Shown here: positions 2,537-48,040 of the stretch, piece by piece | Layout: each line of letters opens with the position of its first letter | Position numbering within the stretch: the stretch's first letter is position 1 | Assembly (NCBI GenBank): GCA_001799895.1 | Contig: MGUI01000004.1 | Span: 20,961-84,960, forward strand | DNA from: Elusimicrobia bacterium GWD2_63_28 | GTDB lineage: Bacteria; Elusimicrobiota; Elusimicrobia; Elusimicrobiales; UBA9959 | DNA: 64,000 nucleotides | Reading direction: 5' to 3' | The notes under the pieces: generated by a model | What the model was told of the DNA's origin: nothing | The model's input: only the letters and a program-made list of their open reading frames with translations | The model's database searches: none | Program-made: the position numbers and the translations under genes

Positions 2537-2576
2537 TGTTATCTCACAGTATGATCTCAACCGTCGGATCTTACCG

Positions 2577-4292: not shown

Positions 4293-4335
4293 AAGTCCTC
4301 CAAAGATTCTAGAAAACCCATCGCCCCGCCACCAT

Positions 4336-6584: not shown

Positions 6585-6639
6585 AGATTCAGCTTTTCTG
6601 TGTCGTTCCGAAGTAGTTCATATGAGAGTGACGCTAGGT

Positions 6640-7557: not shown

Positions 7558-7558
7558 A

Positions 7559-8509: not shown

Positions 8510-8537
8510 AGTTGCCTCCGCTCATAAGCGGACCATG

Positions 8538-9827
8538 CTACTCCTCGCTTACGATATCAGGGTCCAGCTTTAAGGCTTTGGCCGCATCAGCCTTAGCCAA
8601 GGGATATCTCCCCATATCCTGATATATCGCCCCGCGGTTGTAGTAGGCAAAAGCGCATTTGGGGTCCACCTTTATGGCCGAGGAATAGTCCGCCAGTGCA
8701 GCTGTATAATTCTCCATATCCGAGTAGACCTGAGCCCTGTTGCAGTAAAGTTCGGTCGAGGGTGGCTCCCACCTCATTGCCTGGGTAAAGTCCTGCAGGG
8801 CAGCTTCCAGGGCCCCTAGGGCGACATTAGCCATCCCACGGCCACAATACCCCAAACCACGCTCTGGATCGAGCTGGATGGCCTTATTGAAGTCGTTTAA
8901 GGCCTGCTTCGGCTTGCCGGCATGCAAATAAGCCAAACCGCGGTTATGGAGGTACAGGGGATTATTAGGGCTAAGACGGATGGCGGCATTAAAAAAGTGA
9001 ATGGCCTCCTTCAGCCCATCCTTGATCCCGCACATCAAAAGGGCGAAGTTGTTGTAGACGCCGCTGTCGGCAGGACTAAGCCGCATAGCCTTTGCGAAGT
9101 CGGCGTGAGCCTTCAGTAGGTCACCCTTCTCCTGGTAGAGCATTGCCCGGTTATTGTAAGCAAAACCGCTTTTGGGCTCTAACCTGATTATCTTGTCATA
9201 CTGCTCTATAGCCTTATCCGGTAGTTGCATAGCCTGATACGTCTGGCCGAGGCTCCCGAAGATATCGGTAGACTTCGGGTCAAGTTTTAAAGCCCGCTGA
9301 AAGTCCTTAAGCGCCCTATCGACATCTCCCATTTCAAAGAACACCCAGCCGCGGTTAAGATATGCGGCTGAATTTTTAGAGTCCAGCGTTATAGACCGAT
9401 TCAGGTCTTTCAAGGCGGATTTCAGATCCCCGCGCTCAACATAAGCCTGGCCGCGGTTGCTGTAGGTGCAGGAAGACTTGGGCTCCAGTTTAAGGGCCCG
9501 CTCGTAATCAGCGAACGCCTTGGAGAATTTACCCATTTCGGCATAGGCATCACCGCGATTGCTATGGAGGATGGCATTGTCCGGCTGAAGGCGAAGCCCA
9601 TGGTTGAAATCTGCGAGAGCTTTTTCCGGCATGCCGGCATCCAGGTAGGCGCAGCCACGGTCGCTATAAAGGCTGTAATCCCCCTTATCCGTCTTGATTG
9701 CTTTGGTGTAGCTGCGGATGGCCTTCTTAAAGGCCTTCTGGCTCATATGCCGCTCGGCGCGATAGCGGCAGAATACTCCGAGGACATAGTTCTTAAGACC
9801 GAAAAGCACTTTTTGAGTTTTGATCAT
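8538..9827 (-). CDS. TPR repeat protein (about 11 repeats)
   Basis: Highly regular TPR units (e.g. YSNRGQAYVERGDLKSALKDLNRSITLDSKNSAAYLNRG). Confidence 0.85.
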   Translation of the reverse strand: MIKTQKVLFGLKNYVLGVFCRYRAERHMSQKAFKKAIRSYTKAIKTDKGDYSLYSDRGCAYLDAGMPEKALADFNHGLRLQPDNAILHSNRGDAYAEMGKFSKAFADYERALKLEPKSSCTYSNRGQAYVERGDLKSALKDLNRSITLDSKNSAAYLNRGWVFFEMGDVDRALKDFQRALKLDPKSTDIFGSLGQTYQAMQLPDKAIEQYDKIIRLEPKSGFAYNNRAMLYQEKGDLLKAHADFAKAMRLSPADSGVYNNFALLMCGIKDGLKEAIHFFNAAIRLSPNNPLYLHNRGLAYLHAGKPKQALNDFNKAIQLDPERGLGYCGRGMANVALGALEAALQDFTQAMRWEPPSTELYCNRAQVYSDMENYTAALADYSSAIKVDPKCAFAYYNRGAIYQDMGRYPLAKADAAKALKLDPDIVSEE

Positions 9828-9852
9828 AACCCCACCATTCTGGAGATGAATC

Positions 9853-10335
9853 TTAATCCTTGGAATACTCCCAGCTTAAACCATAATCGGAGAACGGGAG
9901 CGGTTCAAAGTCCTTTACTTTAATATGGCTGTTGGCCACCCCAGTCACTTTACAACGCACCAATTCGTTGTCTTCGGTGGTAACAATCACGTGGTCGCCT
10001 TTCCTGGGCTCGCGCCAAGGATTTTTCAGTGTTATGCGCCACATCCCCTCGAAACCATTGACCCCAGACTTCATAGTCCAGAATCCTTCTAAAATATTGC
10101 TCTTGGGGAATTTGTGAAGAGTGGCGTCGCCGCTGACATTTTCTCCTTTCATTTTACACACATAATGCCCTGCGGCAGTCTCTGCCCCCTGCCAGACAAC
10201 GTGTAACCTGTTGAAATATGACACGACGATCTTTGCGCCTTCAATTCGAACATCGCAGGTATAGGCGTATTTATGATCTTCTGCGGGATAATCGACTGCC
10301 GGGCAGTTTTTATATATCAGCATTTCTGATTTCAT
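9853..10335 (-). CDS. Hypothetical protein
   Basis: 160-aa ORF with an AAGGAG RBS; operon position; no family recognised. Confidence 0.5.
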   Translation of the reverse strand: MKSEMLIYKNCPAVDYPAEDHKYAYTCDVRIEGAKIVVSYFNRLHVVWQGAETAAGHYVCKMKGENVSGDATLHKFPKSNILEGFWTMKSGVNGFEGMWRITLKNPWREPRKGDHVIVTTEDNELVRCKVTGVANSHIKVKDFEPLPFSDYGLSWEYSKD

Positions 10336-10355
10336 AAATTTCTCCTTAAACCCGC

Positions 10356-10706
10356 CTAATTCGGCAATCCACCATGGAGAATTTTCACCGGCACTTCGGG
10401 ACAGGGCGGTTCATACTTTGGGAACGGGTCGCGCCGGTCCAGTTTGTTCAGAGCTTTGGGACTGCGGGCATATTCAGCAGCCTCTTCCTCGGATAATCCC
10501 CGGTTGAACACAATCGCGGCTTTCACATCCCGCCTAAGCCGGCGCCAGGTTGTCCTGCCCTCAACTAAGGACTCCGCCTCATCCAAGGTGACGAACTCCA
10601 ACAACACCTCGCTTACGCCCATCTTCGTGAGCCGCTCGATTATGGAGTCCTTTCTGGCATTGGTTTGCCGGCGGTCATTCTTGTATTTATCGAGCCAGTT
10701 CGCCAT
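10356..10706 (-). CDS. Hypothetical protein (first gene of the operator-controlled operon)
   Basis: 116-aa ORF with a GGGGGAG RBS; 33 nt downstream of the -10-like TATCCT of operator copy 1. Confidence 0.5.
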   Translation of the reverse strand: MANWLDKYKNDRRQTNARKDSIIERLTKMGVSEVLLEFVTLDEAESLVEGRTTWRRLRRDVKAAIVFNRGLSEEEAAEYARSPKALNKLDRRDPFPKYEPPCPEVPVKILHGGLPN

Positions 10707-10739: not shown

Positions 10740-10774
10740 AGGATACCGCCCCATCGCGACAGCGTTATGTCGCG
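10740..10774 (-). promoter_or_regulatory. Island operator/promoter copy 1: CGCGACA-N6-TGTCGCG + 9 nt + TATCCT
   Basis: Perfect 7+7 inverted repeat at 10755..10774. On the minus strand it is followed after 9 nt by TATCCT (10745..10740). Upstream of the 10706 -> <1 operon. Confidence 0.6.
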
Positions 10775-37902: not shown

Positions 37903-38097
37903 ACACTCTCCTTTCAGCAGAATTAGTAACAAGCGCCGACTAATGCGGTTCTTCTATTTCAAGGGTAAAGCCTTGGAACAACCGGAATGGCCGTCGCCAA
38001 ACTCACCTGAGGCGCAGGCATGAAAAGAGGATTAATCTTTCTAGCCTGCGCATTCAGTGATTTTTAGAGGTATCTGGGGTTTATATACTTTTCGGTA

Positions 38098-38132
38098 CGC
38101 GACATGACCCTGTCGCGGTCCTGATGTAAGCT
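38098..38132 (+). promoter_or_regulatory. Island operator/promoter copy 2: CGCGACA-tgaccc-TGTCGCG + 9 nt + TAAGCT
   Basis: Perfect palindrome at 38098..38117; upstream of the 38175 operon that contains the WYL regulator gene. Confidence 0.6.
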
Positions 38133-38174
38133 ATATTCAGAAAATGTGCCTCACCGCAGCTGGGACGTAGGGTT

Positions 38175-38681
38175 TTGAATATGGAATTGTTTAACGGATT
38201 GCTTAAAGTGATAGATGAAAAAGGACTGCGCAATAAATATAGCAGCAGCCCTGCAGGCAGACTGCTCGCATTTTGGCTGGATGGCTGGCCGGTAAACCGC
38301 CCAGTGCTGCCTTCGGACTGTCTATATGACAGCGCTACGGATATTTATATCTTCCCGGGCAGCTTTGGACCTGATGACTATCGTGCATTGCTTGGGACAG
38401 TGGTCTACTGGATCGATGCCATTCGAGCGCAGAAGATCAGCAATTACCAAATTCACATTACAGCATCCGTCTTGGATTGGACACCGGAGATAGTCCCAAA
38501 TCCCTTTAAGGATATTGAGAAACTGCCAGCGCAGTATCTGGATGATTTCAAAGTCTTCCATCAATTTGTTGCGGAGTTTTACAGCGAGGAAGAGGCCTCA
38601 AAGGTATTCTTAAATATTGACGGCGAATATCCGGATGAGGGGACTACCAGCATATGCAAGTTATTGATCTCGAACATATAA
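38175..38681 (+). CDS. Hypothetical protein
   Basis: 168-aa ORF (TTG; ATG at 38181); no family recognised. Confidence 0.45.
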   Translation: MNMELFNGLLKVIDEKGLRNKYSSSPAGRLLAFWLDGWPVNRPVLPSDCLYDSATDIYIFPGSFGPDDYRALLGTVVYWIDAIRAQKISNYQIHITASVLDWTPEIVPNPFKDIEKLPAQYLDDFKVFHQFVAEFYSEEEASKVFLNIDGEYPDEGTTSICKLLISNI

Positions 38682-39223
38682 TCAACAACGTAACCCCAAT
38701 ATCTACCGACCGCAGGTATTCCCTGGCATGGTCTTCTGGCGGAGTAATTGGAATTAGAGAATTGGCTACATGTTCTCCCCTTGTTACGCTCAGAGAGGAT
38801 CATGGCGCGATCCTACGGGCGGGATTTTCCACCGACATGCGACAACTGGTTTCCGCCAATGAGGACGGCACCTATTCTATATGGTTCATTAAAAACGACA
38901 TCCCCCCGAAAGGTCGCACCCCTCAAAACAATATCGTCGACTATATCTGCGATGTAGATCTGGTCCCATACCTGAACATAAACCCAAAATCCAAAGCGCA
39001 CAGATATCATTTCATGCTGAAAGATGTGAGTTACGCCATGTATGACTGGTATGATTGGCAAGACTGCCAATGCCCATACTGCGCATGGTACAGCCCCTGC
39101 CGGGAGCCTGGTTGGAAAAGTTCAGACCCGAGCGCTACAAGCTGCTCACGCGGAAGCAAAGGGTGCAACTACAAGTCTACGAGACTTGCTGAAAAGAAGG
39201 GCAAAAGATACCATATAAGATAG
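38654..39223 (+). CDS. Hypothetical protein with Cys-rich C-terminus
   Basis: 189-aa ORF with an ATG start. One WD-like stretch (VSANEDGTYSIWFI). C-terminus CQCPYCAWYSPC...SCSRGSKGC. Confidence 0.45.
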   Translation: MQVIDLEHIINNVTPISTDRRYSLAWSSGGVIGIRELATCSPLVTLREDHGAILRAGFSTDMRQLVSANEDGTYSIWFIKNDIPPKGRTPQNNIVDYICDVDLVPYLNINPKSKAHRYHFMLKDVSYAMYDWYDWQDCQCPYCAWYSPCREPGWKSSDPSATSCSRGSKGCNYKSTRLAEKKGKRYHIR

Positions 39224-39238
39224 GACTACGGGGAGATT

Positions 39239-40246
39239 ATGGCTAAGAAAAAAACTGCCACAAAAAAGGACGATTTTAAGGTCATAAGAATAGGAGCGAA
39301 CCCTGACAAGCGCAGTGATGGGGATCGCCAACATTATCGCATAGGCAAGATCCTAAACAGGCTGGAAGAAGGTCCGGTGCAACTCCGCGCTTTAGCTGCG
39401 GAGTACGGTGTGGTCAAGCGGTCAATAGAACGCGACATAGAACGCATTGAACTTTATGGGTATAACATTGTTACCCCTAAAAAAGGCTGGCGACAATTCG
39501 CCCCAGGAGTAAGCCTAAAAAAAGGGCGCCTAGACGTTCAGCAGCAATCCGCATTAATCATCCTTAACGAGATATCCAAGAACCTTGGCAGTTCCATGCA
39601 GCAATCCTTCGGGACTCTCTTCAAGCACCTCATGGAGGCCGATCCGGCCGATTCTGTTATTGTGCCGGTAATGCCCAAGATCATCAACACAAAAGAGATT
39701 CCCTACATAGACCAGATAGAGGCGGCGATACAGGACCACCGCAAGCTCAATATCCAGTATAACTACGAGGCAAAGGGAGAAATTGTCCCCCGCACAATCT
39801 GCCCGGTCAAGATACTCATCTCCGAAGGCAATGCCTATGTTCTGACGATATCGGAACGGTGGCACGGCAGCCCTATCACATACCGGATAGACCGAATAAA
39901 GACCTTGGAGGACACCCCGGATAAATTCACTCCCCCGAATAACCTGAGCGAGTTGCTGGAAAAGGCGCGCAGCATCTGGGGCATAATGCCGGAGAATGAG
40001 CGCACAACCCTTATACGCCTGAAAGTAACCGACTGGGCCAGGGAATATTTCAGATACCAGGAAATAGTCGGCGGGCAGAAAATAATACCCCAGGAAGACG
40101 GTTCCTTCATCTACGAGGCCAAGATTGGCCGACTGATGGAAATAGTCCCCCATATTCTGCGGTGGATGCCCTATGTGAAGGTTCTGGAGCCTAAAGAGCT
40201 GAAAGAGACCGTCAAATACCGCATAAACGAGTACCTGAAGAAATAG
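39239..40246 (+). CDS. WYL-domain transcriptional regulator (BrxR/CapW-like architecture)
   Basis: N-terminal HTH LRALAAEYGVVKRSIERDIERI, central WYL-like domain ICPVKILISEGNAYVLTISERWHGSPITYRIDRI, and a C-terminal extension. Confidence 0.75.
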   Translation: MAKKKTATKKDDFKVIRIGANPDKRSDGDRQHYRIGKILNRLEEGPVQLRALAAEYGVVKRSIERDIERIELYGYNIVTPKKGWRQFAPGVSLKKGRLDVQQQSALIILNEISKNLGSSMQQSFGTLFKHLMEADPADSVIVPVMPKIINTKEIPYIDQIEAAIQDHRKLNIQYNYEAKGEIVPRTICPVKILISEGNAYVLTISERWHGSPITYRIDRIKTLEDTPDKFTPPNNLSELLEKARSIWGIMPENERTTLIRLKVTDWAREYFRYQEIVGGQKIIPQEDGSFIYEAKIGRLMEIVPHILRWMPYVKVLEPKELKETVKYRINEYLKK

Positions 40247-40279
40247 CCTTCCACTAGACAGTCCCCAAAATTAGCGCAC

Positions 40280-40314
40280 CGCGACAAAACCCTGTCGCGG
40301 TGCTTGCTTATACT
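40280..40314 (+). promoter_or_regulatory. Island operator/promoter copy 3: CGCGACA-aaaccc-TGTCGCG + 9 nt + TATACT
   Basis: Perfect palindrome at 40280..40299; TATACT at 40309..40314; AAGGAGG RBS and ATG 40336 follow. Confidence 0.65.
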
Positions 40315-40335
40315 ATTGCAAATCAAGGAGGCCAT

Positions 40336-41562
40336 ATGAGCAACAGCGAATTTTTTGACGGTCAGATAAAGCAGTTCCATAAGGAATTCCCCCAGAGCGA
40401 GGGCTGGCAAATCTTCAAAAACAACAAAGACTTTTTATCTTTGGTGCCAGAATTGATAGACACTAAACCAAAGATATTAAAGTCCGGCGAAATTTCCCGA
40501 GACATCTCCCACGAATCTCACTATTCGGAAACCAAGGAGGTGTATGAGTTTTCCATGCGGAAAACCCGTTGGCTCGGGACATATCGGCTTCTCTGGGATA
40601 ATAAGCCCATAATAATACGATCCCTCTATTACGAGACCCACCGACAGATACCCTACTTCCTCGTAGCCGTCAAAGATTCTGCCACTCTCAGCAACTTCTA
40701 TGAAGCGATATTAAAGTTTGAGCTGGAAGTCGGAAAGAAACGGGGGCATTCCGTTGTGCAGACCGTGGACTCGGAAGATATTTCCCTCTCCGGGATGTCC
40801 TGGGACAACCTGATACTCCCTACCGGCATGGTAGAAGAGATCAGAACCGGGGTAGAAACATTTTTTAAGGCTGAGGACGTATACAAACGCTTTAGCATCC
40901 CCTACAAGCGTGGTTTTGTTTTTTCCGGCCCGCCAGGATGCGGAAAGACCATGACTGCCAAAACAATCTTAGGGACAATGCACCATCCCTCCTTCCTAAT
41001 CACCAGCAGCGCTGGGAGAGATTACATGGAGTATAAGATCAAGTGGGCATTTGAAGCAGCATCCAGACACGCACCGGCAATACTTCTGATCGAAGAACTT
41101 GAGAAGTTTTCCGAGGCGTCATCGATATCGACCGTGCTAAACCTTATGGATGGGCTCAGTTCAATGAAGGGGATCCTCGCAATAGCCACCACGAACTACC
41201 CCGAGAAGATTGACCCCGCCCTACTGCTGCGGCCCAGTCGCTTCGACCGGGTCTGGAATTTTGCACTGCCGGACTATGAGTGCCGGCTGCGAATGCTTCA
41301 GAAGAAAGCGAACGGACATGTTAACGCCAACATCCTGGAGAAAGTGGCGAAATTCTCCTCCGGATTCTCAATGGCCTATGTGCAGGAAATATTCGCCTCG
41401 GCGATATCCATGGCCCTGCGTGAAGGCCGGGAAGTTTCGGACGTCGACCTGCTGAATAGCGTAGAAATGCTCAAAAAGCAGATCAAGAGCGCCCCGAAGA
41501 GCGGTGCTGGACTTGGTGAAGGTAGCCAGAAAATGGGATTCATCCCGGCGGATGTGAGTTGA
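40336..41562 (+). CDS. Classical AAA+ ATPase (single AAA module, unknown ~190-aa N-domain)
   Basis: Walker A SGPPGCGKTMTA, Walker B ILLIEELE, ATTNYPEKIDPALLLRPSRFDR (SRH/Arg finger). The track start 40300 (GTG) lies inside the operator; ATG 40336 has AAGGAGG. Confidence 0.85.
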   Translation: MSNSEFFDGQIKQFHKEFPQSEGWQIFKNNKDFLSLVPELIDTKPKILKSGEISRDISHESHYSETKEVYEFSMRKTRWLGTYRLLWDNKPIIIRSLYYETHRQIPYFLVAVKDSATLSNFYEAILKFELEVGKKRGHSVVQTVDSEDISLSGMSWDNLILPTGMVEEIRTGVETFFKAEDVYKRFSIPYKRGFVFSGPPGCGKTMTAKTILGTMHHPSFLITSSAGRDYMEYKIKWAFEAASRHAPAILLIEELEKFSEASSISTVLNLMDGLSSMKGILAIATTNYPEKIDPALLLRPSRFDRVWNFALPDYECRLRMLQKKANGHVNANILEKVAKFSSGFSMAYVQEIFASAISMALREGREVSDVDLLNSVEMLKKQIKSAPKSGAGLGEGSQKMGFIPADVS

Positions 41563-41563
41563 T

Positions 41564-41869
41564 ATGACATTCCTTTTCATCTGCCTCGGGCTTTACCTCT
41601 TGTCACGACTATTCTCCCCAAGGCCGGAGGAGCACCAGCGGGAGATCCTCATCGGAATATTTATCTCTGAGTACCACAAGCGCAGCGGTATCTGGGTGAC
41701 CCGAGAGCAGGCGATAGCCCTTATTCAAATTGCATATGCTACGATAACCAATGAGGAACGGGCGGTTAGCCATGCGGAGCAACAAAGACACGCCCAGACT
41801 TTGGCCAGAGAACTTTGCCAAGCAGCAGAACAGGCAGTTCTGAATAACCAGAATAAAGAAAATTTATGA
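41564..41869 (+). CDS. Small single-pass membrane protein
   Basis: N-terminal TM FLFICLGLYLLSRLF; starts 1 nt after the AAA stop. Confidence 0.5.
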   Translation: MTFLFICLGLYLLSRLFSPRPEEHQREILIGIFISEYHKRSGIWVTREQAIALIQIAYATITNEERAVSHAEQQRHAQTLARELCQAAEQAVLNNQNKENL

Positions 41870-42315
41870 CAAACAAGCATCGCGACACGATAAATGCCAT
41901 AAAGCAATATCTCATTGATACAGGCGAATATGAGTTCCCCAGCGAACGATTCTTTGAGAAGGAGATAAAGCCTACGGGGAGCCGTGGTGCTTGGGGGTAC
42001 ACTCCGGATATCAATGCTGTAAGGAAAGATGGAGCTCGCGTTATCGTAGAGGTCGAATATGGTGTTAGCCTAGGAAAGGTTATTGAAGATATAATCTTGT
42101 CGAATTTAATCACCCCCCCACCCCTGCTGATTATCGTGTCTCCATATTCCGCCTATGTTTCCTCCTGGTATGAATTGCTGAAGAAGGAATATAAGTTAAG
42201 CCTGAAGATGGCGTTTATCGAATGCAAAGATTCTACTTCTGAAGCGTATTCCGCCGTTGTGTCAAAATTTAAAGACATTTTAAACAATCATCTGCCACAC
42301 CAGACCGCGACATAG
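41866..42315 (+). CDS. Hypothetical protein, possible PD-(D/E)xK-fold
   Basis: ATGA overlap with the previous gene. GYTPDINAV...VIVEVEYG resembles a restriction-endonuclease core (weak call). Confidence 0.45.
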   Translation: MTNKHRDTINAIKQYLIDTGEYEFPSERFFEKEIKPTGSRGAWGYTPDINAVRKDGARVIVEVEYGVSLGKVIEDIILSNLITPPPLLIIVSPYSAYVSSWYELLKKEYKLSLKMAFIECKDSTSEAYSAVVSKFKDILNNHLPHQTAT

Positions 42316-42340
42316 CCCTGTCGCGCTGTCCTGCCATAAT
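42306..42340 (+). promoter_or_regulatory. Island operator/promoter copy 4: CGCGACA-tagccc-TGTCGCG + 9 nt + CATAAT
   Basis: Perfect palindrome at 42306..42325, overlapping the last codons of 41866..42315; ATG 42359 is 18 nt after the hexamer. Confidence 0.6.
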
Positions 42341-42358
42341 ATTGCTGAGGCAAACATT

Positions 42359-43714
42359 ATGGCAAGCATTAAACAAACAAATTCATCCCTTTCCTTCCGC
42401 TACCGGTTGCATGGTGGAGCGGAAGAGATAGGAGGCAACTTTATTGAGGTGGAATTCGCCGGGAAGCGCATTTTCCTGGATATGGGGATGCCGCTTACCC
42501 TTCCCGAAGAGGGCCCCTTCTCCTCCTGGGAGATAGAAAAGCGCTCGACAGCGGAAATAGTGCAAGCCGGCTACCTACCGGAGCTGCCGGGCCTATATAA
42601 TGGCACTGACCCCAGCATACTCGGGATTATCATCTCCCACCCGCACAAAGACCATTTTGGATTCATTAAACGGGCAAGTCCGAAAATCCCTATATACATG
42701 GGGGAGAAGACCCGGGCAATAATAGAGGCGACAGCTCATTTCATAAAGGATTATCCCACTTTCAAGGAGAACATCCTCCATCCCATATCCGATCGCGCAA
42801 GATTCCAGTTAGGGCCATTCGAGATTACCCCCTTCGCATCGGATCATTCTGCTTTCGATTCCTATTCGCTGCTGATACGCGTTGGAGGCAAGTCCCTGTT
42901 CTACTCCGGCGACCTGAGAGCTCACGGAAGAAAGGGATATTTTTTCGAGAGCCTCCTCCGGGATATCCCCCGCAGCATTGACCACTTCCTCCTGGAAGGC
43001 ACTATGATGGGCCGGCCAAGAGAGAAGCGTCTTCGGGAAGTGGACCTGGCTAATGATTTTACGGGACTGCTTACATCAAGACGCGGACTTGTCCTGGTTA
43101 ACACTTCGGCACACAACATAGATCGCTTGGAGACCATCTACTACAGCGCCATGAATGCCGGCAGAACCCTGATTATGGATAATTACTCGGCATACATCTA
43201 CACGGCGATTGGCCACCCATTTCTTCCTGGTAAAGCCCCTGAAGTGAGGGTTTTCTTCCCCGTAAGGCAGTGCATAAACATCAAGAAAGAAGCCACGTTC
43301 TCAACAAAGCTCACGCCGTTTATGGATAGGCGAATATACGCCGACGAGATTGCGAAGAGCCCGGAAAAATACGTAATGCTATTCCGGGATTCGATGCTGG
43401 AGGATTTTAGTGACAGGGGCAGGCGCTATATACCCACAAAGTGTCTGGCAGGAGCCAAACATATCTACTCAATGTGGGATGGGTATTGGGATGAAATGCC
43501 CAGAACCCAGGCCTTTCTCCGGGAGCACCGTATCCGCAATGTGGCGATACATTGCTCCGGGCATGCCTACAAACAAGATCTAAAGAGGCTTCTTGCTGCG
43601 GCACAGCCACAATACGCCGTGCCGATACACACCGAGAAGGAAAGACGCAAAGACTTCAAGGGGATCTACAGCAGCGTCCTGCCAGTCAATAAAGGCGAGT
43701 GGCAGAGAATTTAG
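42359..43714 (+). CDS. MBL-fold metallo-hydrolase, beta-CASP/RNase J-like nuclease
   Basis: HxHxDH motif IISHPHKDHFG; also ASDHSAF, SGDLR, HCSGHA, VPIHTE. Confidence 0.75.
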   Translation: MASIKQTNSSLSFRYRLHGGAEEIGGNFIEVEFAGKRIFLDMGMPLTLPEEGPFSSWEIEKRSTAEIVQAGYLPELPGLYNGTDPSILGIIISHPHKDHFGFIKRASPKIPIYMGEKTRAIIEATAHFIKDYPTFKENILHPISDRARFQLGPFEITPFASDHSAFDSYSLLIRVGGKSLFYSGDLRAHGRKGYFFESLLRDIPRSIDHFLLEGTMMGRPREKRLREVDLANDFTGLLTSRRGLVLVNTSAHNIDRLETIYYSAMNAGRTLIMDNYSAYIYTAIGHPFLPGKAPEVRVFFPVRQCINIKKEATFSTKLTPFMDRRIYADEIAKSPEKYVMLFRDSMLEDFSDRGRRYIPTKCLAGAKHIYSMWDGYWDEMPRTQAFLREHRIRNVAIHCSGHAYKQDLKRLLAAAQPQYAVPIHTEKERRKDFKGIYSSVLPVNKGEWQRI

Positions 43715-43732: not shown

Positions 43733-44572
43733 TTACCTAAACCATTCCTCAAGATCTTCAGTTACAATCCGGGCAATCTCGGCCGGAGAAAGATTGGGGT
43801 GAGCCCCATTAAGATGTGTCATATAACTTCTCTGAAGTTGTGCGCGAGTGCGAGAAGAGAAAGATTGATCCTTGAACCTACAGGTGAAACGAACACCGGA
43901 AGATTCAGGGCGGGCGACTCTCTCGTGACGCGCATGGCCGAACAGATGATTTAGATATTTGGCAAGATACTGCCCATGAGTCCCACATTTATCCTGAACA
44001 TATTCACCGAACTCTTTCATGGATACCCAGAAAACATGCGGAGACTGCTTAGCTGGGACATCAGAAAACCCTGCCGGTTTACGTCCAAGTGGAGTTAAAT
44101 AGACTATATCTACCTGGTCAATGATAGCCTGAACCCCGGATATCTTCTGCAGCAGTGAATCGAAAGAACTTTTGTTATCGGAAGCGGCGCGTATCTGGCG
44201 AAGCGCAGTTAGATTTGCGACCATACCCGCTTCCTGTGCCACACGATATCTGTTGAACTGCTTTTGATCATGGTCCGTCTTTAACGTCTCCTCGGATGTT
44301 TTGAATTCCACAAGAACCCATCTAGAGTCATTTCCATCCTCGACAAAGCAGAGATAATCGACAGCTGTGAATTGATTTGATTCCGGCTTTTTTAATGGGA
44401 ATTCCGCTGCGATTAAACGCACTTCTTTCGATTTATAAACTTTCTCACTTAAGTATCCAGGCAAGAAATGCGCTACAAAAACATCCAAGCGGCGCTCTAT
44501 TGAAAACCCCGGCAGGTTTTCCATCTCTTCAATATAAGAGAATAGTTTCTGAAAACAATCGTGCGTAGACAT
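43733..44572 (-). CDS. PD-(D/E)xK-like nuclease-fold protein
   Basis: AVDYLCFVEDG...WVLVEFKT core. Start moved to ATG 44572 (GAGGG RBS, 13 nt after the upstream stop) from track start 44641. Confidence 0.5.
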   Translation of the reverse strand: MSTHDCFQKLFSYIEEMENLPGFSIERRLDVFVAHFLPGYLSEKVYKSKEVRLIAAEFPLKKPESNQFTAVDYLCFVEDGNDSRWVLVEFKTSEETLKTDHDQKQFNRYRVAQEAGMVANLTALRQIRAASDNKSSFDSLLQKISGVQAIIDQVDIVYLTPLGRKPAGFSDVPAKQSPHVFWVSMKEFGEYVQDKCGTHGQYLAKYLNHLFGHARHERVARPESSGVRFTCRFKDQSFSSRTRAQLQRSYMTHLNGAHPNLSPAEIARIVTEDLEEWFR

Positions 44573-44585
44573 TTGCCCTCGCCTA

Positions 44586-45389
44586 TTACCTAGCAATTTT
44601 AGCTCTATTGCCCCTTGGCTTAGAGTACACCTGATCCCCATTAAGCTTAAGTGTTTGGGTTAAGCAGTTATCTCCAGGGAATTCTCTAGAAACCTGTCCC
44701 CATGTCAAAATTCCAAATCTAGCAAAGACACGACTTAACTGGGTTGAATCATTCGAATATCGACTTTTCCAGTAATCAGACATCTTCTGGTAAACAGGCC
44801 TCCCGTCCCCAGGGATAAGACCAATCACATACCATTTAGCAGAATACTCCCACAGCATGTTTATTAGATACTTGCTTACAGGCTTACTGTCCGGTATTTT
44901 TCGAAGTTGGCCATCTATGACCTCCCCTATGCGTAGAGATCTCCTCATGGTCAAAAAATTATTATGGCTTTTCCAATTTTCGATTCTTCCTCCTAGCTCA
45001 AGTTCACGGGTGACCTGTTTTTTTAGGCAGGATGTCCCATCGCCAAGAAATTCCCGGAGGAGCGTCTTTTCTTTTTTAAATCCTTTTGCTTTTGCTTCGA
45101 TAAACAGCGCCACCCGCTGTTCTTTAGAGTCATCGCGTGATTGCGCTTTCAATAGGAGAATCGCATCCGGATTTCCACATTCACTTAAAGAAAATTCAAC
45201 AAGCACATGATCCAAGGAATTCACCACAAGGTTCTGACCAATTAGTCCAGAAAACCCCTTTCCGTTTAGCAGTTTCGTAAGTATCTTTGCCCCATTCTGA
45301 TTAATCAATTCATTTACAAACGCGTTTACCGCACCCCTTTCTGAATATTGCCACAGCCTAACCTTTGCCAATTGCGAACGTGTCATCAT
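44586..45389 (-). CDS. PD-(D/E)xK-like nuclease-fold protein
   Basis: NPDAILLL...ALFIEAKAKG core; no family recognised. Confidence 0.45.
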   Translation of the reverse strand: MMTRSQLAKVRLWQYSERGAVNAFVNELINQNGAKILTKLLNGKGFSGLIGQNLVVNSLDHVLVEFSLSECGNPDAILLLKAQSRDDSKEQRVALFIEAKAKGFKKEKTLLREFLGDGTSCLKKQVTRELELGGRIENWKSHNNFLTMRRSLRIGEVIDGQLRKIPDSKPVSKYLINMLWEYSAKWYVIGLIPGDGRPVYQKMSDYWKSRYSNDSTQLSRVFARFGILTWGQVSREFPGDNCLTQTLKLNGDQVYSKPRGNRAKIAR

Positions 45390-45470
45390 ATACTTCTCTC
45401 CATTTCGGAATCATCCCAGAATAACCATCATATATACCTTTCAGAATGTAAGGCAATATCTAAATTTACA

Positions 45471-46433
45471 CTATACGTCCTTTTCATCCATTACCTGCAC
45501 TATGCTGTAGTGGTTATCCTCGAACTCAAGGTGCTTGACCATCTCTGCATAAACAGGGAACTTCTCCCTCTTCCCCAACTCGGTAATCTTCCCTGCCCGA
45601 TAGAATGTTGCCAGAGAATCCCAAGCCGCACGGCGGACATCTGCCACAGGATCCTTAACCAATTCCCGAAGAAAGGCTACGGCATCCTCCGAAAAGCATT
45701 TTCCAATAGCCATTGCCGCCGCCTCGCGGGTATTGGCATCCGGAGATTTAAGTTTCGGCAAAACCAGCCATGAGAGATCCTCCCCCATCCTCATAAGCGC
45801 CGTGGCGAATTCAAGCTGAAACTTGTCGTCCTCCTCTTCCAGCATCGCGCATTTTATGGATTGGCGAATCCAGCTATGTGGCTCCATGCCTGCAAGAGCA
45901 CTGGCCGCTGCGGTGCGAAGTTCCCCCGGCCTGTCTGCTTCGAGTAAGCGCAAAAGATGCGGCTTACACTCGGGGTCCTTAATCTCCTCTATGCCATACA
46001 GCCCATGCAAAGCCACGATCTGATCCTCACTGTCCGCCGCCTTAACCAGCACCATCAGGCCCGCATATCCCCCGAGATGCGCTATGGCCATGCTGGACTC
46101 TATCCCAACCTCTACTATCACATCGGAAAGAGCCTCCTCCAGCTCGTCCATTTCCCGTTCCGTAGCGCATGTCTTCATAGCAATTGCTGCAGCTAGCCGC
46201 ACGTACGGGCCCCCAAAGCGGAGGAGATAGGCCAGCCGGCTTGCCGCTATCCTTAGCCCTAGCATCCCAACCGCCTGTATAGCGCGAAGCAAGACCTTCT
46301 GTTTCTTACGGAAGAGGAGTTCCAGCAGCAGGAAGCGTTTCTCCCTGTTGGCAGGCTGGCCTAAGGCATAGACCGCGGTTCGCCACTTCTTAAGATCCCT
46401 TTCAGATGCTATTGTTTTAATGATGTCGTTCAT
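45471..46433 (-). CDS. HEAT-repeat protein
   Basis: Repeated D...R..AA.ALG units (GELRTAAASALAG, DANTREAAAMAIGK, DPVADVRRAAWDSLA). ATG 46433 has a GGAGGA RBS; track start 46448 is a TTG. Confidence 0.65.
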   Translation of the reverse strand: MNDIIKTIASERDLKKWRTAVYALGQPANREKRFLLLELLFRKKQKVLLRAIQAVGMLGLRIAASRLAYLLRFGGPYVRLAAAIAMKTCATEREMDELEEALSDVIVEVGIESSMAIAHLGGYAGLMVLVKAADSEDQIVALHGLYGIEEIKDPECKPHLLRLLEADRPGELRTAAASALAGMEPHSWIRQSIKCAMLEEEDDKFQLEFATALMRMGEDLSWLVLPKLKSPDANTREAAAMAIGKCFSEDAVAFLRELVKDPVADVRRAAWDSLATFYRAGKITELGKREKFPVYAEMVKHLEFEDNHYSIVQVMDEKDV

Positions 46434-46451: not shown

Positions 46452-46486
46452 AGTCTACTCCCCCAACGCGACAGGGCAATGTCGCG
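46452..46486 (-). promoter_or_regulatory. Island operator/promoter copy 5 (minus orientation): CGCGACA-ttgccc-TGTCGCG + 9 nt + TAGACT
   Basis: Perfect palindrome at 46467..46486. Read on the minus strand, its spacer ends in CCC like copies 2-4. TAGACT at 46457..46452; HEAT-gene ATG 46433. Confidence 0.6.
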
Positions 46487-46502: not shown

Positions 46503-46537
46503 CGCGACATGACGTTGTCGCGGTGATGTTGTATGCT
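46503..46537 (+). promoter_or_regulatory. Island operator/promoter copy 6: CGCGACA-tgacgt-TGTCGCG + 9 nt + TATGCT
   Basis: Perfect palindrome at 46503..46522; TATGCT at 46532..46537; ATG 46559. Copies 5 and 6 are each preceded by CCCCAA. Confidence 0.65.
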
Positions 46538-46558: not shown

Positions 46559-48040
46559 ATGGCTAACAAACGACTTTCCAAATCCCAGTTCATGATGGGA
46601 CTGCAGTGTCAGAAAAGACTCTGGCTCTATAACTATCGCAAAGATCTTATCCCTCCTATAGACCCTGCTCAGCAGCAGATATTCGACCAGGGGCATGCTA
46701 TCGGGGAGTTGGCGCGCAATTACTTCCAGGGCGGAACCCTGGTCAGCGCGGATTATATGCATATCCCGGAGGCAATAAAGCATACAGCAGAGCTTGTTTC
46801 CGGGAAGACGAAGGCGGTTTATGAAGCGACCTTTGTCTACGACAATGTCCTGGTCAGGGCAGACATCTTAAAGAGGAACAGTGATGGTTCCTGGGACCTA
46901 ATAGAAGTTAAGGGTTCCACAGAAGTGAAGGACGAACACCTCTATGATGTCGCCGTCCAACGCTACGTCATCGAAGGCGCCGGCATAAAAATCCGCAAAG
47001 CGGAACTGATGCATATAGATAACACCTTCGTTAAAGACGGAGAGATAAAGCCAAAGGATTTCTTCACCCGTCAGGATATAACCAAAGAGACTAAGGAACT
47101 AATCCCGGAAGTAAAAGAAAATCTGAAGGACTTCATGAAGACGCTCTCGGCCGCGAAAGAGCCCGACATCGATATCGGCCAGCATTGTTCTTCCCCCTAT
47201 TCCTGCGATTTCTGCGGACACTGCTGGAAAGGGATACCGGAATACTCTATCTACGATATCCCGCGGCTTAAGTGGGAGAAAAAGAACGCGCTCAGAGAGA
47301 TGGGCATTCTGAAGTTCCGGGATGTACCAGAGGACTTCGATTTGAATGACGGACAGCGCCTCTATTGGCAGGTTGAAAGGACAGGACGGACAATCCTGGA
47401 CAAAGAACAAATACAGGAATTCCTTGATAAACTCGAATACCCTATCTGCCACATAGACTTCGAGACGATCATGCCCGGGTTGCCTCTCTATGACGGCACA
47501 CGGCCATACCAGCAGATCCCGTTCCAGGTCTCCCTGCACATCCAGGATAAACCAGGAGCAGAACCAACGCATTGTGAGTTCCTTGCAGATGGAAAGGCCG
47601 ACCCCAGACCGGAATTAACCAAGTTCCTGGTCTCCAATATAGGGACGAAAGGCACACTATTGGCCTATAATGCGGCCTTTGAGAAAAAGCGGATAGAGGA
47701 ACTGGCTGAGGCCTTTCCTAAGCATCGCAAGGCGCTATTGGCCTTGTTAGACCGCTTTGAAGACCTTATGAAGCCCTTTCAGCAGCGTGCCTACGTTCAC
47801 CCCAAGTTCCAGGGGCGGTATTCAATAAAGAACGTTCTCCCCGCGCTTATCCCTGATATGACATATAAGGGAATGGCCGTTGCCAACGGAGGAGACGCTC
47901 AGATAGCCTATCTTAACATCCTGTCCGGCAAACTTTCACCGGAAGCCGTTGAGCAGACACGGAAGGACTTAATCGCCTACTGCGGCCAGGATACCTTGGC
48001 TATGGTAAAGATACTGGAGCACTTGGGAGACATAGTGTAG
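46559..48040 (+). CDS. DUF2779-like protein: Cas4/RecB-like PD-(D/E)xK + Cys cluster, C-terminal DEDD-like exonuclease
   Basis: LSKSQFMMGLQCQKRLW N-terminus, RADIL...WDLIEVKG core, CSSPYSCDFCGHC cluster, then HIDFET / AYNAAFEKKRI / YCGQDTLAM. Start at ATG 46559; the track GTG 46523 lies inside the promoter. Confidence 0.65.
   Translation: MANKRLSKSQFMMGLQCQKRLWLYNYRKDLIPPIDPAQQQIFDQGHAIGELARNYFQGGTLVSADYMHIPEAIKHTAELVSGKTKAVYEATFVYDNVLVRADILKRNSDGSWDLIEVKGSTEVKDEHLYDVAVQRYVIEGAGIKIRKAELMHIDNTFVKDGEIKPKDFFTRQDITKETKELIPEVKENLKDFMKTLSAAKEPDIDIGQHCSSPYSCDFCGHCWKGIPEYSIYDIPRLKWEKKNALREMGILKFRDVPEDFDLNDGQRLYWQVERTGRTILDKEQIQEFLDKLEYPICHIDFETIMPGLPLYDGTRPYQQIPFQVSLHIQDKPGAEPTHCEFLADGKADPRPELTKFLVSNIGTKGTLLAYNAAFEKKRIEELAEAFPKHRKALLALLDRFEDLMKPFQQRAYVHPKFQGRYSIKNVLPALIPDMTYKGMAVANGGDAQIAYLNILSGKLSPEAVEQTRKDLIAYCGQDTLAMVKILEHLGDIV

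What the first reader, a model, noticed from the sequence alone, without database searches (positions are those of the whole stretch)
38098..43714. WYL regulator + AAA+ ATPase + membrane protein + nuclease-fold protein + MBL/beta-CASP nuclease: candidate undescribed defence module
Three consecutive operator-controlled transcription units make up this region.
- Unit 1 encodes two unknown proteins (168 and 189 aa, the latter Cys-rich) and a WYL regulator.
- Unit 2 encodes a classical AAA+ ATPase with a novel ~190-aa N-domain, a 101-aa single-pass membrane protein (starts 1 nt after the AAA stop), and a 149-aa possible PD-(D/E)xK protein (ATGA overlap).
- Unit 3 encodes an HxHxDH MBL/beta-CASP nuclease.

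WYL regulators such as BrxR and CapW are known to sit next to, and repress, anti-phage systems. I do not recognise this effector combination (AAA+ / TM / REase-like / beta-CASP) as any named system. In particular it is not Iet, which pairs an ATPase with a subtilase, and it is not Gabija, Septu, Lamassu or PARIS. Its location inside a dense defence island supports an immunity role.
Basis: inference. Interest (0 to 1): 0.8.

Follow-up and report, generated by a model that had tools for sequence, protein, structure and literature searches.

The report
WYL-controlled AAA+ and nuclease regulon
A DNA-sensing-type (WYL) regulator on a genomic island controls at least six promoters through one exact 20-bp box, driving a Bcs1/YjoB-like AAA+ ATPase and several nucleases; the regulator–ATPase pair is widespread and undescribed, but whether it serves phage defence or DNA-damage response is untested.

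Summary

The interpretation needs redrawing.
- **Regulon is larger.** The box CGCGACA-N6-TGTCGCG occurs six times in the window. It also precedes DUF2779, a HEAT-repeat operon and a distant TPR/dynamin-like operon.
- **Promoter design.** Every box sits exactly 9 nt upstream of a TAnnnT -10 element, over a weak -35. That is the design of DriD/PafBC-type WYL activators, not BrxR-type repressors. DriD is also the regulator's closest solved relative.
- **AAA+ N-domain is not novel.** The whole protein superposes on B. subtilis YjoB and mitochondrial Bcs1.
- **Conserved core.** Across 88 related loci only WYL + AAA+ recurs (WYL within 4 kb in 48 of 61 loci with enough flank). A related box precedes the AAA+ gene in 40 loci.
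- **Variable cargo.** Downstream genes vary: GmrSD, PD-(D/E)xK, VRR-NUC, UDG-like.
- **Whole cassette.** The cassette plus HEAT and DUF2779 recurs, boxes included, in one other genome. F149 is replaced there.

No named system matches. A defence role is plausible but unproven, and a DNA-damage regulon is a serious rival.

The parts
38098..38132 (+). Promoter P1: box CGCGACATGACCCTGTCGCG, 9 nt, then -10 TAAGCT. Drives A168-B189-WYL.
   Evidence: The same position is conserved in L201. It lies in a divergent intergenic region, so it is not a terminator.
38181..38681 (+). A168: small protein of a very rare family. The ORF opens at TTG 38175; the likely start is ATG 38181.
   Evidence: No family hits. 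Only 8 representatives among 1.84 billion proteins. Homologues in L201 and L004. Fused to a B189-like domain in P0246.
38654..39223 (+). B189: partner of A168. The conserved N-terminal ~140 aa gives only a weak WD40-like signal; the Cys-rich tail is specific to this window.
   Evidence: Homologues in L201, L004 and L202.
39239..40246 (+). HTH-WYL-WCX transcription factor, presumed to bind the box.
   Evidence: Pfam WYL, WCX and HTH_11. The closest solved relatives are DriD, then PafC. Cluster c2 lies beside the AAA+ gene in most related loci.
40280..40314 (+). Promoter P2: box CGCGACAAAACCCTGTCGCG, 9 nt, then -10 TATACT. Drives AAA+-E101-F149.
   Evidence: Conserved in L201, L001 and L100.
40336..41562 (+). 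Classical-clade AAA+ ATPase with a YjoB/Bcs1-like N-domain (408 aa).
   Evidence: Pfam AAA. AF2 model pLDDT 86.5. Foldseek: YjoB 7w42 E 3.7e-22 over 404 columns, plus Bcs1. Family alignment A1.
41564..41869 (+). E101: N-terminal hydrophobic helix followed by a conserved helical region.
   Evidence: Homologues in L201 (61%) and L202 (35%). None in the 88 AAA+ loci.
41866..42315 (+). F149: variable slot; possible restriction-endonuclease-like protein.
   Evidence: Motif TPDINAV...VIVEVEY. No family hits. L201 has an unrelated 151-aa protein here carrying YDIVIL...LVAEVKY. AF2 pLDDT 45.
42306..42340 (+). Promoter P3: box CGCGACATAGCCCTGTCGCG, 9 nt, then -10 CATAAT. Drives the MBL gene and overlaps the last codons of F149.
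   Evidence: Conserved in L201.
42359..43714 (+). MBL / beta-CASP-type nuclease (HxHxDH).
   Evidence: Lactamase_B_2 and RMMBL. PDB 2az4 E 3.6e-21, then RNase J. 74% identical orthologue in L201 and 71% in L202.
43733..46433 (-). P5 operon: HEAT-repeat protein (45471-46433), then two variable small proteins (44586-45389 and 43733-44641) with D...ExK-like motifs.
   Evidence: HEAT_2. HEAT is 73% identical in L201, but the two downstream genes are replaced there.
46452..46486 (-). Promoter P5 (minus strand): box at 46467-46486, 9 nt, then -10 TAGACT.
   Evidence: Conserved in L201.
46503..46537 (+). Promoter P4: box CGCGACATGACGTTGTCGCG, 9 nt, then -10 TATGCT. Drives DUF2779.
   Evidence: Conserved in L201.
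46560..48040 (+). Cas4/RecB-like plus DUF2779 (RNase H-like) predicted exonuclease.
   Evidence: Pfam DUF2779 E 8.5e-43, with weak Cas4 and RNase_H_2 hits. 86% identical in L201 and 62% in L004; also in L160 and L161.
10740..10774 (-). Promoter P6 (minus strand): box at 10755-10774, 9 nt, then -10 TATCCT.
1919..10706 (-). Distal operon downstream of P6: 116 aa, 160 aa, two TPR proteins, 314 aa, three dynamin-like GTPase ORFs and 223 aa.
   Evidence: That it forms one transcription unit is inferred from gene order and strand only.

Best explanation
This is a regulon, not a closed seven-gene operon set.

**Regulation.** A homodimeric HTH-WYL-WCX factor (39239-40246) binds the palindrome CGCGACA-N6-TGTCGCG. 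The box is centred on the -35 position of six promoters in the island. I infer that the factor works like DriD or PafBC: a nucleic-acid ligand, most likely single-stranded DNA, binds its WYL domain and lets it recruit RNA polymerase to promoters with weak -35 elements.

**Outputs.**
- its own operon, which includes the A168/B189 protein pair;
- a soluble, chambered Bcs1/YjoB-like AAA+ ATPase with a small membrane protein and a variable nuclease-fold protein;
- a beta-CASP MBL nuclease;
- a Cas4-like/DnaQ-like DUF2779 exonuclease;
- a HEAT-repeat operon with two more variable nuclease-fold genes;
- a TPR/dynamin-like operon.

**Evolution.** The conserved core is the WYL-AAA+ pair, which is widespread. 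Downstream of it, DNA-targeting genes are swapped in and out.

**Likely role.** An inducible attack on, or processing of, foreign DNA in an infected cell.

**Shown versus inferred.**
- Shown: the genes, domains, boxes, fixed spacing and co-occurrence.
- Inferred: who binds the box, activation rather than repression, the ligand, what the AAA+ acts on, and the immunity role.
For: **The boxes are promoter elements.**
- There are six exact boxes, against 0.17 matches expected even with up to 2 mismatches.
- Each is followed by exactly 9 nt and then a TAnnnT or CAnnnT -10 element, with 2-4 of 6 matches to TTGACA at the -35 position and a short leader carrying a ribosome-binding site.
- P1, P4 and P5 lie between divergent genes, which excludes a terminator role.
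- Five of the six boxes sit at the same promoters in L201.

**The regulator is DriD-like.**
- By sequence its only solved relatives are DriD (E 1.7e-9) and PafC. BrxR and CapW are not recovered at E <= 0.01.
- DriD binds ATACGAC-N7-GTCGTAT at the -35 position, at a fixed distance from -10, on promoters lacking a -35 element (PMC13004042).
- BrxR's box instead lies downstream of the -10 element (PMC9122601).
- The DriD ssDNA-contact residues Y168, R178, Y192 and R207 are conserved.

**WYL + AAA+ is the conserved core.**
- A WYL gene lies within 4 kb of the AAA+ gene in 48 of 61 loci with enough flank.
- 40 loci carry a related box followed by 8-11 nt and a TAnnnT -10 element (N9 in the typical Nitrospira-type form), in most of them directly upstream of the AAA+ gene or of the operon that contains it.

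**The AAA+ looks functional and Bcs1/YjoB-like.**
- It superposes on YjoB and Bcs1 over about 400 columns and on viral BCS1-like proteins.
- The Walker A motif, sensor-1 N287 and arginine fingers R299/R302 are invariant.

**Downstream genes are variable and DNA-targeting.**
- The next gene is on the same strand in 60 of 75 loci, with a median gap of 46 nt.
- These genes include GmrSD (4), PDDEXK_4 (2) and VRR_NUC.

**Context.**
- The island is rich in defence genes.
- The cassette members recur together in L201, L004 and L202.
Against: - There is no experimental or direct computational evidence for immunity. No component matches a validated defence protein above its threshold.
- In Nitrospira-type genomes the pair sits at a fixed chromosomal site among housekeeping genes. 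That looks more like a physiological stress response.
- Regulon members seen elsewhere read as repair or replication functions. They include a DnaG-like primase with its own box, DnaB_C-like ATPases, beta-CASP and RecB/Cas4-like nucleases, and a weak UDG-like hit (Pfam UDG E 0.018).
- A box over the -35 position is also compatible with repression by occlusion.
- Three DriD ssDNA contacts (R189, R204, Y240) are not conserved.
- GmrSD enzymes work alone, so at least some 'downstream effectors' may simply be neighbours in a hotspot.
- 13 of 61 loci have no WYL gene nearby.
Confidence: 0.45

Rival explanations
1. A LexA-independent DNA-damage response. It has the same regulatory logic (ssDNA-activated WYL factor), but the output is repair or tolerance of the cell's own DNA. 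That would cover end resection and hairpin or crosslink processing by the beta-CASP and DUF2779 nucleases, and remodelling of stalled protein or nucleoprotein complexes by the AAA+. The island merely carries an extra copy of a stress regulon.
For: - The closest characterised relatives, DriD and PafBC, control damage regulons that include nucleases (bapE, recJ) and dnaG (PMC13004042; PMC6789036).
- A DnaG-like primase carries its own box in L146 and L148.
- DnaB_C-like ATPases are the commonest neighbour, and one carries a box in L001.
- In Nitrospira-type genomes the pair is a stable chromosomal resident between dtd/asparaginase and mtgA/engB.
- The beta-CASP, RecB/Cas4-like and VRR-NUC folds, and a weak UDG-like hit, are classic repair folds.
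Against: - The gene directly downstream of the AAA+ differs between closely related loci at the same site. It includes Type IV restriction enzymes of the GmrSD type. That pattern is typical of conflict genes, not repair genes.
- In the window, the F149, h267 and h302 slots are replaced by unrelated proteins in L201.
- The window copy sits in a tRNA-Met integrative island packed with defence genes.
- L001 lies next to a Type I restriction-modification system.
Confidence: 0.3
2. One reading: a self-contained seven-gene anti-phage system (38098-43714) kept silent by a BrxR/CapW-like WYL repressor. The effectors would be the AAA+, the membrane protein, the nuclease-fold protein and the MBL nuclease acting together.
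For: - The three units share one operator.
- Tight coupling of AAA+, E101 and F149.
- The seven-gene order recurs in L201.
- WYL regulators are documented beside defence systems (PMC9122601, PMC9122588).
Against: - The box also controls DUF2779, the HEAT operon and a distal operon.
- F149 is not conserved even in L201.
- E101 and F149 are absent from the 88 AAA+ loci, and the MBL is present in only 3 of them.
- WYL-MBL occurs without the AAA+ in L202.
- The regulator's sequence relatives and promoter geometry match activators.
Confidence: 0.12
3. A mobile-element housekeeping circuit. The WYL factor and AAA+ would control the island's own replication, excision or establishment after transfer, when the element is single-stranded. 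The nucleases and the neighbouring DUF2958/RadC/406-aa genes would be leading-region-type functions.
For: - DUF2958, RadC and a 406-aa protein lie divergently from P1.
- DUF2958 and the 406-aa homologue lie directly beside the AAA+ homologue in L094; DUF2958 does so in L117.
- Integrase and tRNA-Met mark the island end.
- A 21-bp iteron-like array lies at 34254-34370.
- DnaB_C-like and DnaG-like genes occur in related loci.
Against: - No conjugation, relaxase or replication-initiator genes were found in the regulon.
- No box precedes the integrase gene.
- The pair is chromosomal and not on a mobile element in Nitrospira-type genomes.
Confidence: 0.08

Closest known systems
DriD regulon of Caulobacter crescentus (homodimeric HTH-3HB-WYL-WCX activator, ssDNA-triggered)
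   Same: - Closest solved relative by sequence.
- Palindromic site with a CGAC/GTCG core (DriD: ATACGAC-N7-GTCGTAT).
- Site placed over the -35 position at one fixed distance from -10, on promoters with poor -35 elements.
- Several promoters per regulon, and nuclease and primase targets.
   Different: - Only about 25% identity, restricted to the WYL-WCX part.
- The half-site spacing is N8 between GAC and GTC in the window (N7 in Nitrospira-type loci).
- Three ssDNA contacts are not conserved.
- The window factor has a box before its own operon, whereas DriD is not autoregulated.
- No AAA+ ATPase is reported in the DriD regulon.
PafBC / SiwR (actinobacterial WYL activators, sigma adaptation at the -26 region)
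   Same: - WYL factor activating promoters without a -35 element in response to ssDNA or genotoxic stress.
- PafBC is genomically tied to an AAA+ (proteasomal ATPase) locus.
   Different: - PafBC is a heterodimer with a non-palindromic motif.
- The sequence match to PafC is marginal (E 0.0064).
- The AAA+ here is Bcs1/YjoB-like, not Mpa/ARC.
BrxR / CapW (WYL repressors of BREX, CBASS and other defence islands)
   Same: - HTH-WYL-WCX architecture.
- Inverted-repeat operators, with more than one box per island.
- Location in defence islands.
   Different: - BrxR's box lies downstream of the -10 element and acts as a roadblock.
- Neither is recovered as a sequence relative among solved structures.
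- The partner AAA+ is not part of BREX or CBASS.
YjoB (B. subtilis) and mitochondrial Bcs1 AAA+ ATPases
   Same: - Full-length structural match including the N-domain.
- Classical AAA clade.
- No aromatic pore-loop-1 motif, in keeping with action on folded clients. YjoB is a chambered holding chaperone (PMC9565160).
   Different: - About 20% identity.
- No N-terminal membrane anchor, unlike Bcs1.
- YjoB is reported as a sigma-W regulon member conserved in Bacilli (PMC9565160), not a WYL target.
- Walker B reads E-E/E-D rather than D-E.
IetAS (Iet) defence system
   Same: The AAA domain gives weak IetA/IteA hits (PADLOC E 2.5e-17; NCBIfam 53 bits).
   Different: - Far below the NCBIfam cut-off of 510 bits.
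- Different N-domain.
- No subtilase partner was detected among the regulon genes.
EF2904-type (PDB 2az4) and RNase J beta-CASP MBL nucleases
   Same: HxHxDH motif, Lactamase_B_2 and RMMBL domains, and similar size.
   Different: - Not an RNase J orthologue (76 bits against a cut-off of 400).
- Substrate unknown.
- Belongs to a family of more than 1700 members often found in accessory regions, for example beside Lamassu genes in L203.

Membership tests
HTH-WYL-WCX transcription factors | WYL domain followed by a WCX dimerisation domain | tested here: met
   PF13280 scores 42.6 bits (cut-off 21.8) and PF25583 scores 42.0 bits (cut-off 23.9).
HTH-WYL-WCX transcription factors | N-terminal winged HTH DNA-binding domain | tested here: inconclusive
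   HTH_11 gives E 9.8e-5 and 22.6 bits, just under the cut-off of 25. A PADLOC WYL model aligns residues 34-321.
DriD/PafBC-type WYL activators | Binding site over the -35 position, at one fixed distance from -10, on promoters with weak or absent -35 elements | tested here: met
   Six of six boxes are followed by 9 nt and a TAnnnT or CAnnnT hexamer, with 2-4 of 6 matches to TTGACA at the -35 position. The comparison is with PMC13004042. This is geometry only; binding was not tested.
DriD/PafBC-type WYL activators | ssDNA binding in the WYL pocket that switches on DNA binding and activation | not testable with these tools
   Y168, R178, Y192 and R207 equivalents are conserved; R189, R204 and Y240 are not.
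BrxR/CapW-type WYL repressors | Operator placed to block RNA polymerase (for BrxR, downstream of -10), plus close sequence relationship | tested here: not met
   The boxes are upstream of the -10 element. BrxR and CapW structures are not recovered at E <= 0.01. Repression by -35 occlusion is still not excluded.
Classical-clade AAA ATPases | Walker A, Walker B, sensor-1 Asn, and the second region of homology with arginine fingers | tested here: met
   GPPGCGKT, an invariant E253 in the E-[ED] Walker B, N287, and R299/R302 in RPSRFDR. PF00004 scores 79.9 bits.
Bcs1/YjoB-like AAA ATPases | Bcs1/YjoB-type N-terminal (middle) domain preceding a single AAA module | tested here: met
   Foldseek: 7w42 E 3.7e-22 over 404 columns with TM 0.62; Bcs1 entries 8t7u and 6uks. 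Viral BCS1-like proteins also match.
Bcs1/YjoB-like AAA ATPases | N-terminal transmembrane anchor (Bcs1 proper) | tested here: not met
   The N-terminus MSNSEFFDGQIKQFHKEFPQSEGW is hydrophilic. The protein is soluble like YjoB.
IetAS defence system | IetA-family ATPase above the family threshold, with an adjacent IetS subtilase | tested here: not met
   NF042959 scores 53.3 bits against a cut-off of 510. No peptidase_S8 hit among the proteins scanned.
beta-CASP MBL nucleases | MBL fold with HxHxDH and a C-terminal RMMBL motif | tested here: met
   SHPHKDH. PF12706 scores 44.4 bits and PF07521 scores 31.7 bits. PDB hits are 2az4 and RNase J.
beta-CASP MBL nucleases | Recognisable beta-CASP insertion domain and orthology to RNase J | tested here: not met
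   No Beta-Casp Pfam hit. TIGR00649 scores 76 bits against a cut-off of 400.
PD-(D/E)xK nucleases (149-aa protein) | alpha-beta-beta-beta-alpha-beta core with a D...(D/E)xK catalytic motif | tested here: inconclusive
   The motif is D48...E62-V-E64, without the canonical Lys. No profile hits. The AF2 model has pLDDT 45, although its order of secondary-structure elements is compatible.
Any named anti-phage system (PADLOC-DB v2.0.0) | Component proteins match that system's models | tested here: not met
   Only generic WYL hits and weak IetA, TRIP13 and mad8 hits. Nothing for five of the seven proteins. DefenseFinder and newer PADLOC releases were not available.

The most novel reading that the evidence does not exclude
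The WYL + Bcs1/YjoB-like AAA+ pair is a widespread, undescribed immune chassis triggered by ssDNA. The WYL factor senses replication or recombination intermediates of an invader and switches on the AAA+. The AAA+ ring then acts on a folded client: an invader protein, a nucleoprotein complex, or the co-transcribed effector. Lineage-specific, swappable DNA-targeting effectors ride on the same inducible promoters. The window would hold its most elaborate known version, with six promoters and at least four nucleases.
Probability: 0.3. Interest if true: 0.8.

Novelty: new variant of a known kind. Interest (0 to 1): 0.6.

Why it matters
WYL regulators are known in two settings: as switches for DNA-damage regulons (DriD, PafBC) and as repressors beside phage-defence systems (BrxR, CapW). 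This locus suggests a bridge between the two.

It combines a DriD-like promoter design with a gene set that behaves like conflict cargo: variable nucleases carried in a defence island. It also has a conserved partner, a Bcs1/YjoB-like AAA+ ATPase, that has not been reported with WYL factors. That AAA+ family has at least several hundred members (849 database proteins at E <= 1e-5).

The six exact boxes give a clean, directly testable regulon. They also make the activator-versus-repressor question for defence-island WYL factors easy to test experimentally. If the pair proves to be an immune module, it adds a new class of ATPase to bacterial immunity. If it proves to be a damage response, it extends the DriD/PafBC paradigm to Nitrospira, Elusimicrobia and relatives, and identifies that response's main output.

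Tried and rejected
- **Genome scan with the full-length AAA+ alignment.** Only 5 of 80 loci were true family members. I redid the scan on metagenomes with a family-specific C-terminal alignment.
- **Viral-contig scan.** It found only partial, generic AAA matches, so there is no evidence that the family is phage-borne.
- **Exact repeated palindromes in distant loci.** Only close relatives showed them. A relaxed motif search then found the Nitrospira-type box.
- **Homology search for B189.** It returned two near-identical proteins. The A168 search of 1.84 billion representatives gave 8.
- **AlphaFold of F149 from a single sequence.** The model reached pLDDT 45 and was too poor for a fold search, so I did not run one.
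- **Palindromes as terminators (flagged at P2).** Rejected, because P1, P4 and P5 lie between divergent genes and all six keep the same spacing to a -10 element.
- **Rfam scan of 33-51 kb.** It found only tRNA-Met.
- **Literature searches.** Searches for WYL + AAA+, Bcs1 + defence, and DUF2779 turned up no description of this module.
- **Iet, TRIP13/CBASS and mad8.** Considered and rejected on score and on missing partner genes.

Full report
**1. Observation**

The seven + strand ORFs are present as described.
- Pfam confirms a WYL-WCX regulator with a near-threshold HTH, a classical AAA ATPase, and an MBL protein with an RMMBL motif and the SHPHKDH signature.
- The 168-, 189-, 101- and 149-aa proteins match nothing significant in Pfam, PADLOC, NCBIfam or PHROGs.
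- The AAA+ stop and the E101 start are 1 nt apart, and E101 and F149 overlap by ATGA.
- The likely true starts are ATG 40336 for the AAA+ (408 aa) and ATG 38181 for A168.

**2. The operators are real, and there are six**

Reading the three intergenic regions shows the same 20-bp palindrome, CGCGACA-N6-TGTCGCG, at 38098, 40280 and 42306. A window-wide search finds six exact copies. With up to 2 mismatches there are 7 matches against 0.17 expected, and no shuffle reached 7.

- 46503, before DUF2779, whose real start is ATG 46560;
- 46467, serving the minus-strand operon of the HEAT-repeat gene plus two small genes;
- 10755, serving a minus-strand operon of 116 aa, 160 aa, two TPR proteins, 314 aa, three dynamin-like GTPase ORFs and 223 aa.

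In the direction of transcription every box is followed by exactly 9 nt and a -10-like hexamer: TAAGCT, TATACT, CATAAT, TATGCT, TAGACT and TATCCT. The hexamer 17 bp upstream of each -10 falls inside the box spacer and matches TTGACA at only 2-4 positions. Leaders are short and carry ribosome-binding sites.

P1, P4 and P5 lie between divergent genes. The palindromes therefore cannot be terminators, although the scan flagged P2 as terminator-like.

**3. What kind of WYL factor**

By sequence, the only solved relatives are Caulobacter DriD (7u02, 8tp8, 9pfq; E about 2e-9) and, marginally, PafC. BrxR and CapW are not recovered.

The literature comparison points the same way:
- DriD binds ATACGAC-N7-GTCGTAT. 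Its sites overlap the position of a missing -35 element and sit at one fixed distance from -10 in all regulated promoters. Activation is by RNA polymerase recruitment after ssDNA binding (PMC13004042).
- PafBC and SiwR likewise act at the -26 region (PMC10693628).
- BrxR's box lies downstream of the -10 element and blocks the polymerase (PMC9122601).

The window's geometry and the CGAC/GTCG half-site core therefore match the activator class. Of the DriD residues that contact ssDNA, the equivalents of Y168, R178, Y192 and R207 are conserved, while R189, R204 and Y240 are not. A nucleic-acid ligand is thus likely, but its identity is open. Repression by occluding the -35 position is not excluded.

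**4. The AAA+**

I built a 30-sequence family alignment (A1) and an AlphaFold model from it (pLDDT 86.5).
- The model superposes over about 400 columns on B. subtilis YjoB (7w42, E 3.7e-22, TM 0.62) and on mitochondrial Bcs1. It also superposes on BCS1-like proteins of phages and giant viruses. The N-domain is therefore not novel.
- Walker A, sensor-1 N287 and the arginine fingers in RPSRFDR are invariant. Walker B reads E-E/E-D, with E253 invariant.
- The usual aromatic pore-loop-1 motif is absent, consistent with action on folded clients. YjoB is described as a chambered, substrate-specific holding chaperone (PMC9565160).
- There is no N-terminal membrane helix, so the protein is soluble like YjoB.

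**5. Comparative genomics**

The AAA+ family, N-domain included, is large: 849 database proteins at E <= 1e-5. It occurs in Elusimicrobiota, Desulfobacteraceae, Nitrospira, Binatia and Verrucomicrobiota.

I collected 88 loci from look-ups and scans and clustered all neighbouring ORFs.

*The conserved core*
- The one recurrent partner is the WYL factor. It lies within 4 kb in 48 of 61 loci with at least 1.1 kb of upstream flank, and usually directly upstream on the same strand.
- In 40 loci a related box, consensus TGACCTATTCTGTCAC, is followed by 8-11 nt and a TAnnnT -10 element; the typical Nitrospira-type form is N9 followed by TAGGnT. In most of these loci it lies directly upstream of the AAA+ gene or of the operon that contains it.
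- The distance from the GTC half-site to the -10 element (12 nt) is the same as in the window. The AAA+ is therefore the principal conserved target of the regulator.

*The variable slot*
- The next gene is on the same strand in 60 of 75 loci, with a median gap of 46 nt, and it is highly variable.
- It includes GmrSD-type enzymes (4 of 47 scanned), PDDEXK_4 (2), VRR_NUC, TPR proteins and DUF6942 (weak UDG hit, E 0.018) proteins.
- In Nitrospira-type genomes the pair sits at one chromosomal site between dtd/asparaginase and a glyoxalase/mtgA/engB block. Only the slot after the AAA+ changes.
- A DnaG-like primase has its own box in two loci.
- DnaB_C-like ATPases are the commonest other neighbour. 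One is preceded by the window-type box in L001.

**6. The window's cassette**

E101 and F149 have no homologue in the 88 loci, and the MBL appears in only three of them (L004, L092, L108). Starting from the MBL protein instead gave two more informative loci.

*L201 (GCA_019135895.1), a syntenic copy*

| Protein | Identity to window |
|---|---|
| A168 | 47% |
| B189 | 50% |
| WYL | 89% |
| AAA+ | 78% |
| E101 | 61% |
| MBL | 74% |
| HEAT | 73% |
| DUF2779 | 86% |

- L201 has boxes at the same five promoters.
- Three slots are replaced by unrelated proteins: F149 by a 151-aa protein, and the two genes after HEAT.
- All the replacements, and the window's own proteins in those slots, carry D...(D/E)x(K/E) motifs suggestive of restriction-endonuclease-like folds. 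This is motif-level evidence only.

*Partial copies*
- L202 has a B189-like gene, WYL (42%) and MBL (71%), but no AAA+.
- L004 has DUF2779 (62%), AAA+ (53%), A168 (40%), B189 (50%) and MBL (30%) in a different order.

*A168 and B189*
- A168 belongs to a tiny family of 8 representatives among 1.84 billion proteins.
- One member, P0246, is an A168-B189 fusion, so the two proteins very probably act together.
- B189's Cys-rich tail is not conserved.

**7. Context**

The low-GC segment (about 45-50% GC) runs to a tyrosine integrase (49196-50206) beside tRNA-Met (50273-50349). After that the GC content rises to 65%.

The island carries Ssp-like phosphorothioation genes, a GmrSD_N protein, PLD proteins, SNF2 and DEAD helicases, a kinase, a HerA-like ATPase and dynamin-like GTPases. 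The 'dense defence island' statement therefore holds.

**8. Mechanism and rivals**

*Shown:* the genes, the domains, six boxes in a strictly repeated promoter architecture, conservation of the boxes in L201, WYL-AAA+ as a conserved pair with a box before the AAA+ gene, and variable DNA-targeting genes downstream.

*Inferred:* the WYL dimer binds the box; it activates on binding ssDNA; the AAA+ ring acts on a folded client.

The AAA+ is conserved while the downstream genes belong to unrelated families. I therefore think it more likely that the AAA+ acts on a common target, with the variable genes exploiting the inducible promoter, than that it is a dedicated chaperone for each of them.

*The physiological role is the main uncertainty.*
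- The variable slots, the GmrSD cargo and the island setting favour defence.
- The DriD/PafBC kinship, the primase, DnaB_C and repair-type nucleases, and the fixed chromosomal site in Nitrospira favour a DNA-damage regulon.

**9. Novelty**

No named system matches in PADLOC v2, NCBIfam or Pfam. Literature searches found no description of a WYL + Bcs1/YjoB-like AAA+ module. I could not run current DefenseFinder or PADLOC releases. I class this as a new variant of a known kind, namely WYL-controlled stress or defence regulons.

Noticed in passing
window 23114-29542: An Ssp/Dnd-like DNA phosphorothioation cluster: DUF4007 protein (27306-28325, -), a 1114-aa ATPase with a weak nSTAND hit (23958-27302, -), a PAPS-reductase-like protein (23114-23956, -), and a divergent class-V aminotransferase / cysteine-desulfurase-like gene (28370-29542, +).
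   Followed up: partly
window 10828-22935 (- strand): A run of defence-type genes: SNF2 helicase, PLD-domain proteins (605 and 318 aa), a Ser/Thr kinase, a GmrSD_N protein, a HATPase_c_3 protein and a DEAD/ResIII helicase. L201 has a similar 346 aa / PLD / DEAD trio directly beside its cassette.
   Followed up: partly
window 29647-32207: A HerA-like ATPase (695 aa), preceded by an overlapping 158-aa ORF with no family hit. It may be a HerA-based two-gene defence pair.
   Followed up: no
window 1919-10774: A sixth exact WYL box (10755) with a minus-strand -10 element precedes an operon of two small proteins, two TPR proteins and three dynamin-like GTPase ORFs. This would be a distal member of the same regulon, 28 kb from the regulator.
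   Followed up: partly
window 35805-37932 (- strand); L094 10494-12438; L117 844-1170: DUF2958, a RadC-like JAB protein and a 406-aa protein lie divergently from P1. Homologues of DUF2958 and the 406-aa protein sit directly downstream of an AAA+ family member in L094, and DUF2958 does so in L117. This suggests a further recurrent association.
   Followed up: partly
window 34184-34375: A (TC)n/ATCT microsatellite is followed by 5.6 copies of a 21-bp tandem repeat (TTTCTAAGCAAAATGACACTA). The array is iteron-like and lies just downstream of a 95-aa ORF (33852-34139). Its function is unknown.
   Followed up: no
window 49196-50349 and about 50 kb onward: A tyrosine integrase lies next to tRNA-Met, with a GC jump from about 48% to 65%. 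This is the right-hand end of an integrative island that extends beyond the left edge of the window.
   Followed up: partly
P0246 (database protein, 339 aa): A natural fusion of an A168-like and a B189-like domain. This Rosetta-stone evidence indicates that the two small proteins of the WYL operon act as one unit.
   Followed up: partly
L146 4448-5770; L148 3536-4783: DnaG-like primase paralogues (CHC2 zinc finger plus DNAG_N) have their own WYL box and -10 element in Nitrospira-type loci. This parallels dnaG in the Caulobacter DriD regulon.
   Followed up: partly
window 42306-42315 and L201 7949-7958: The P3 box overlaps the last codons of the upstream gene. As a result, two unrelated proteins (F149 and the L201 151-aa protein) both end in ...TAT-stop.
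   Followed up: yes
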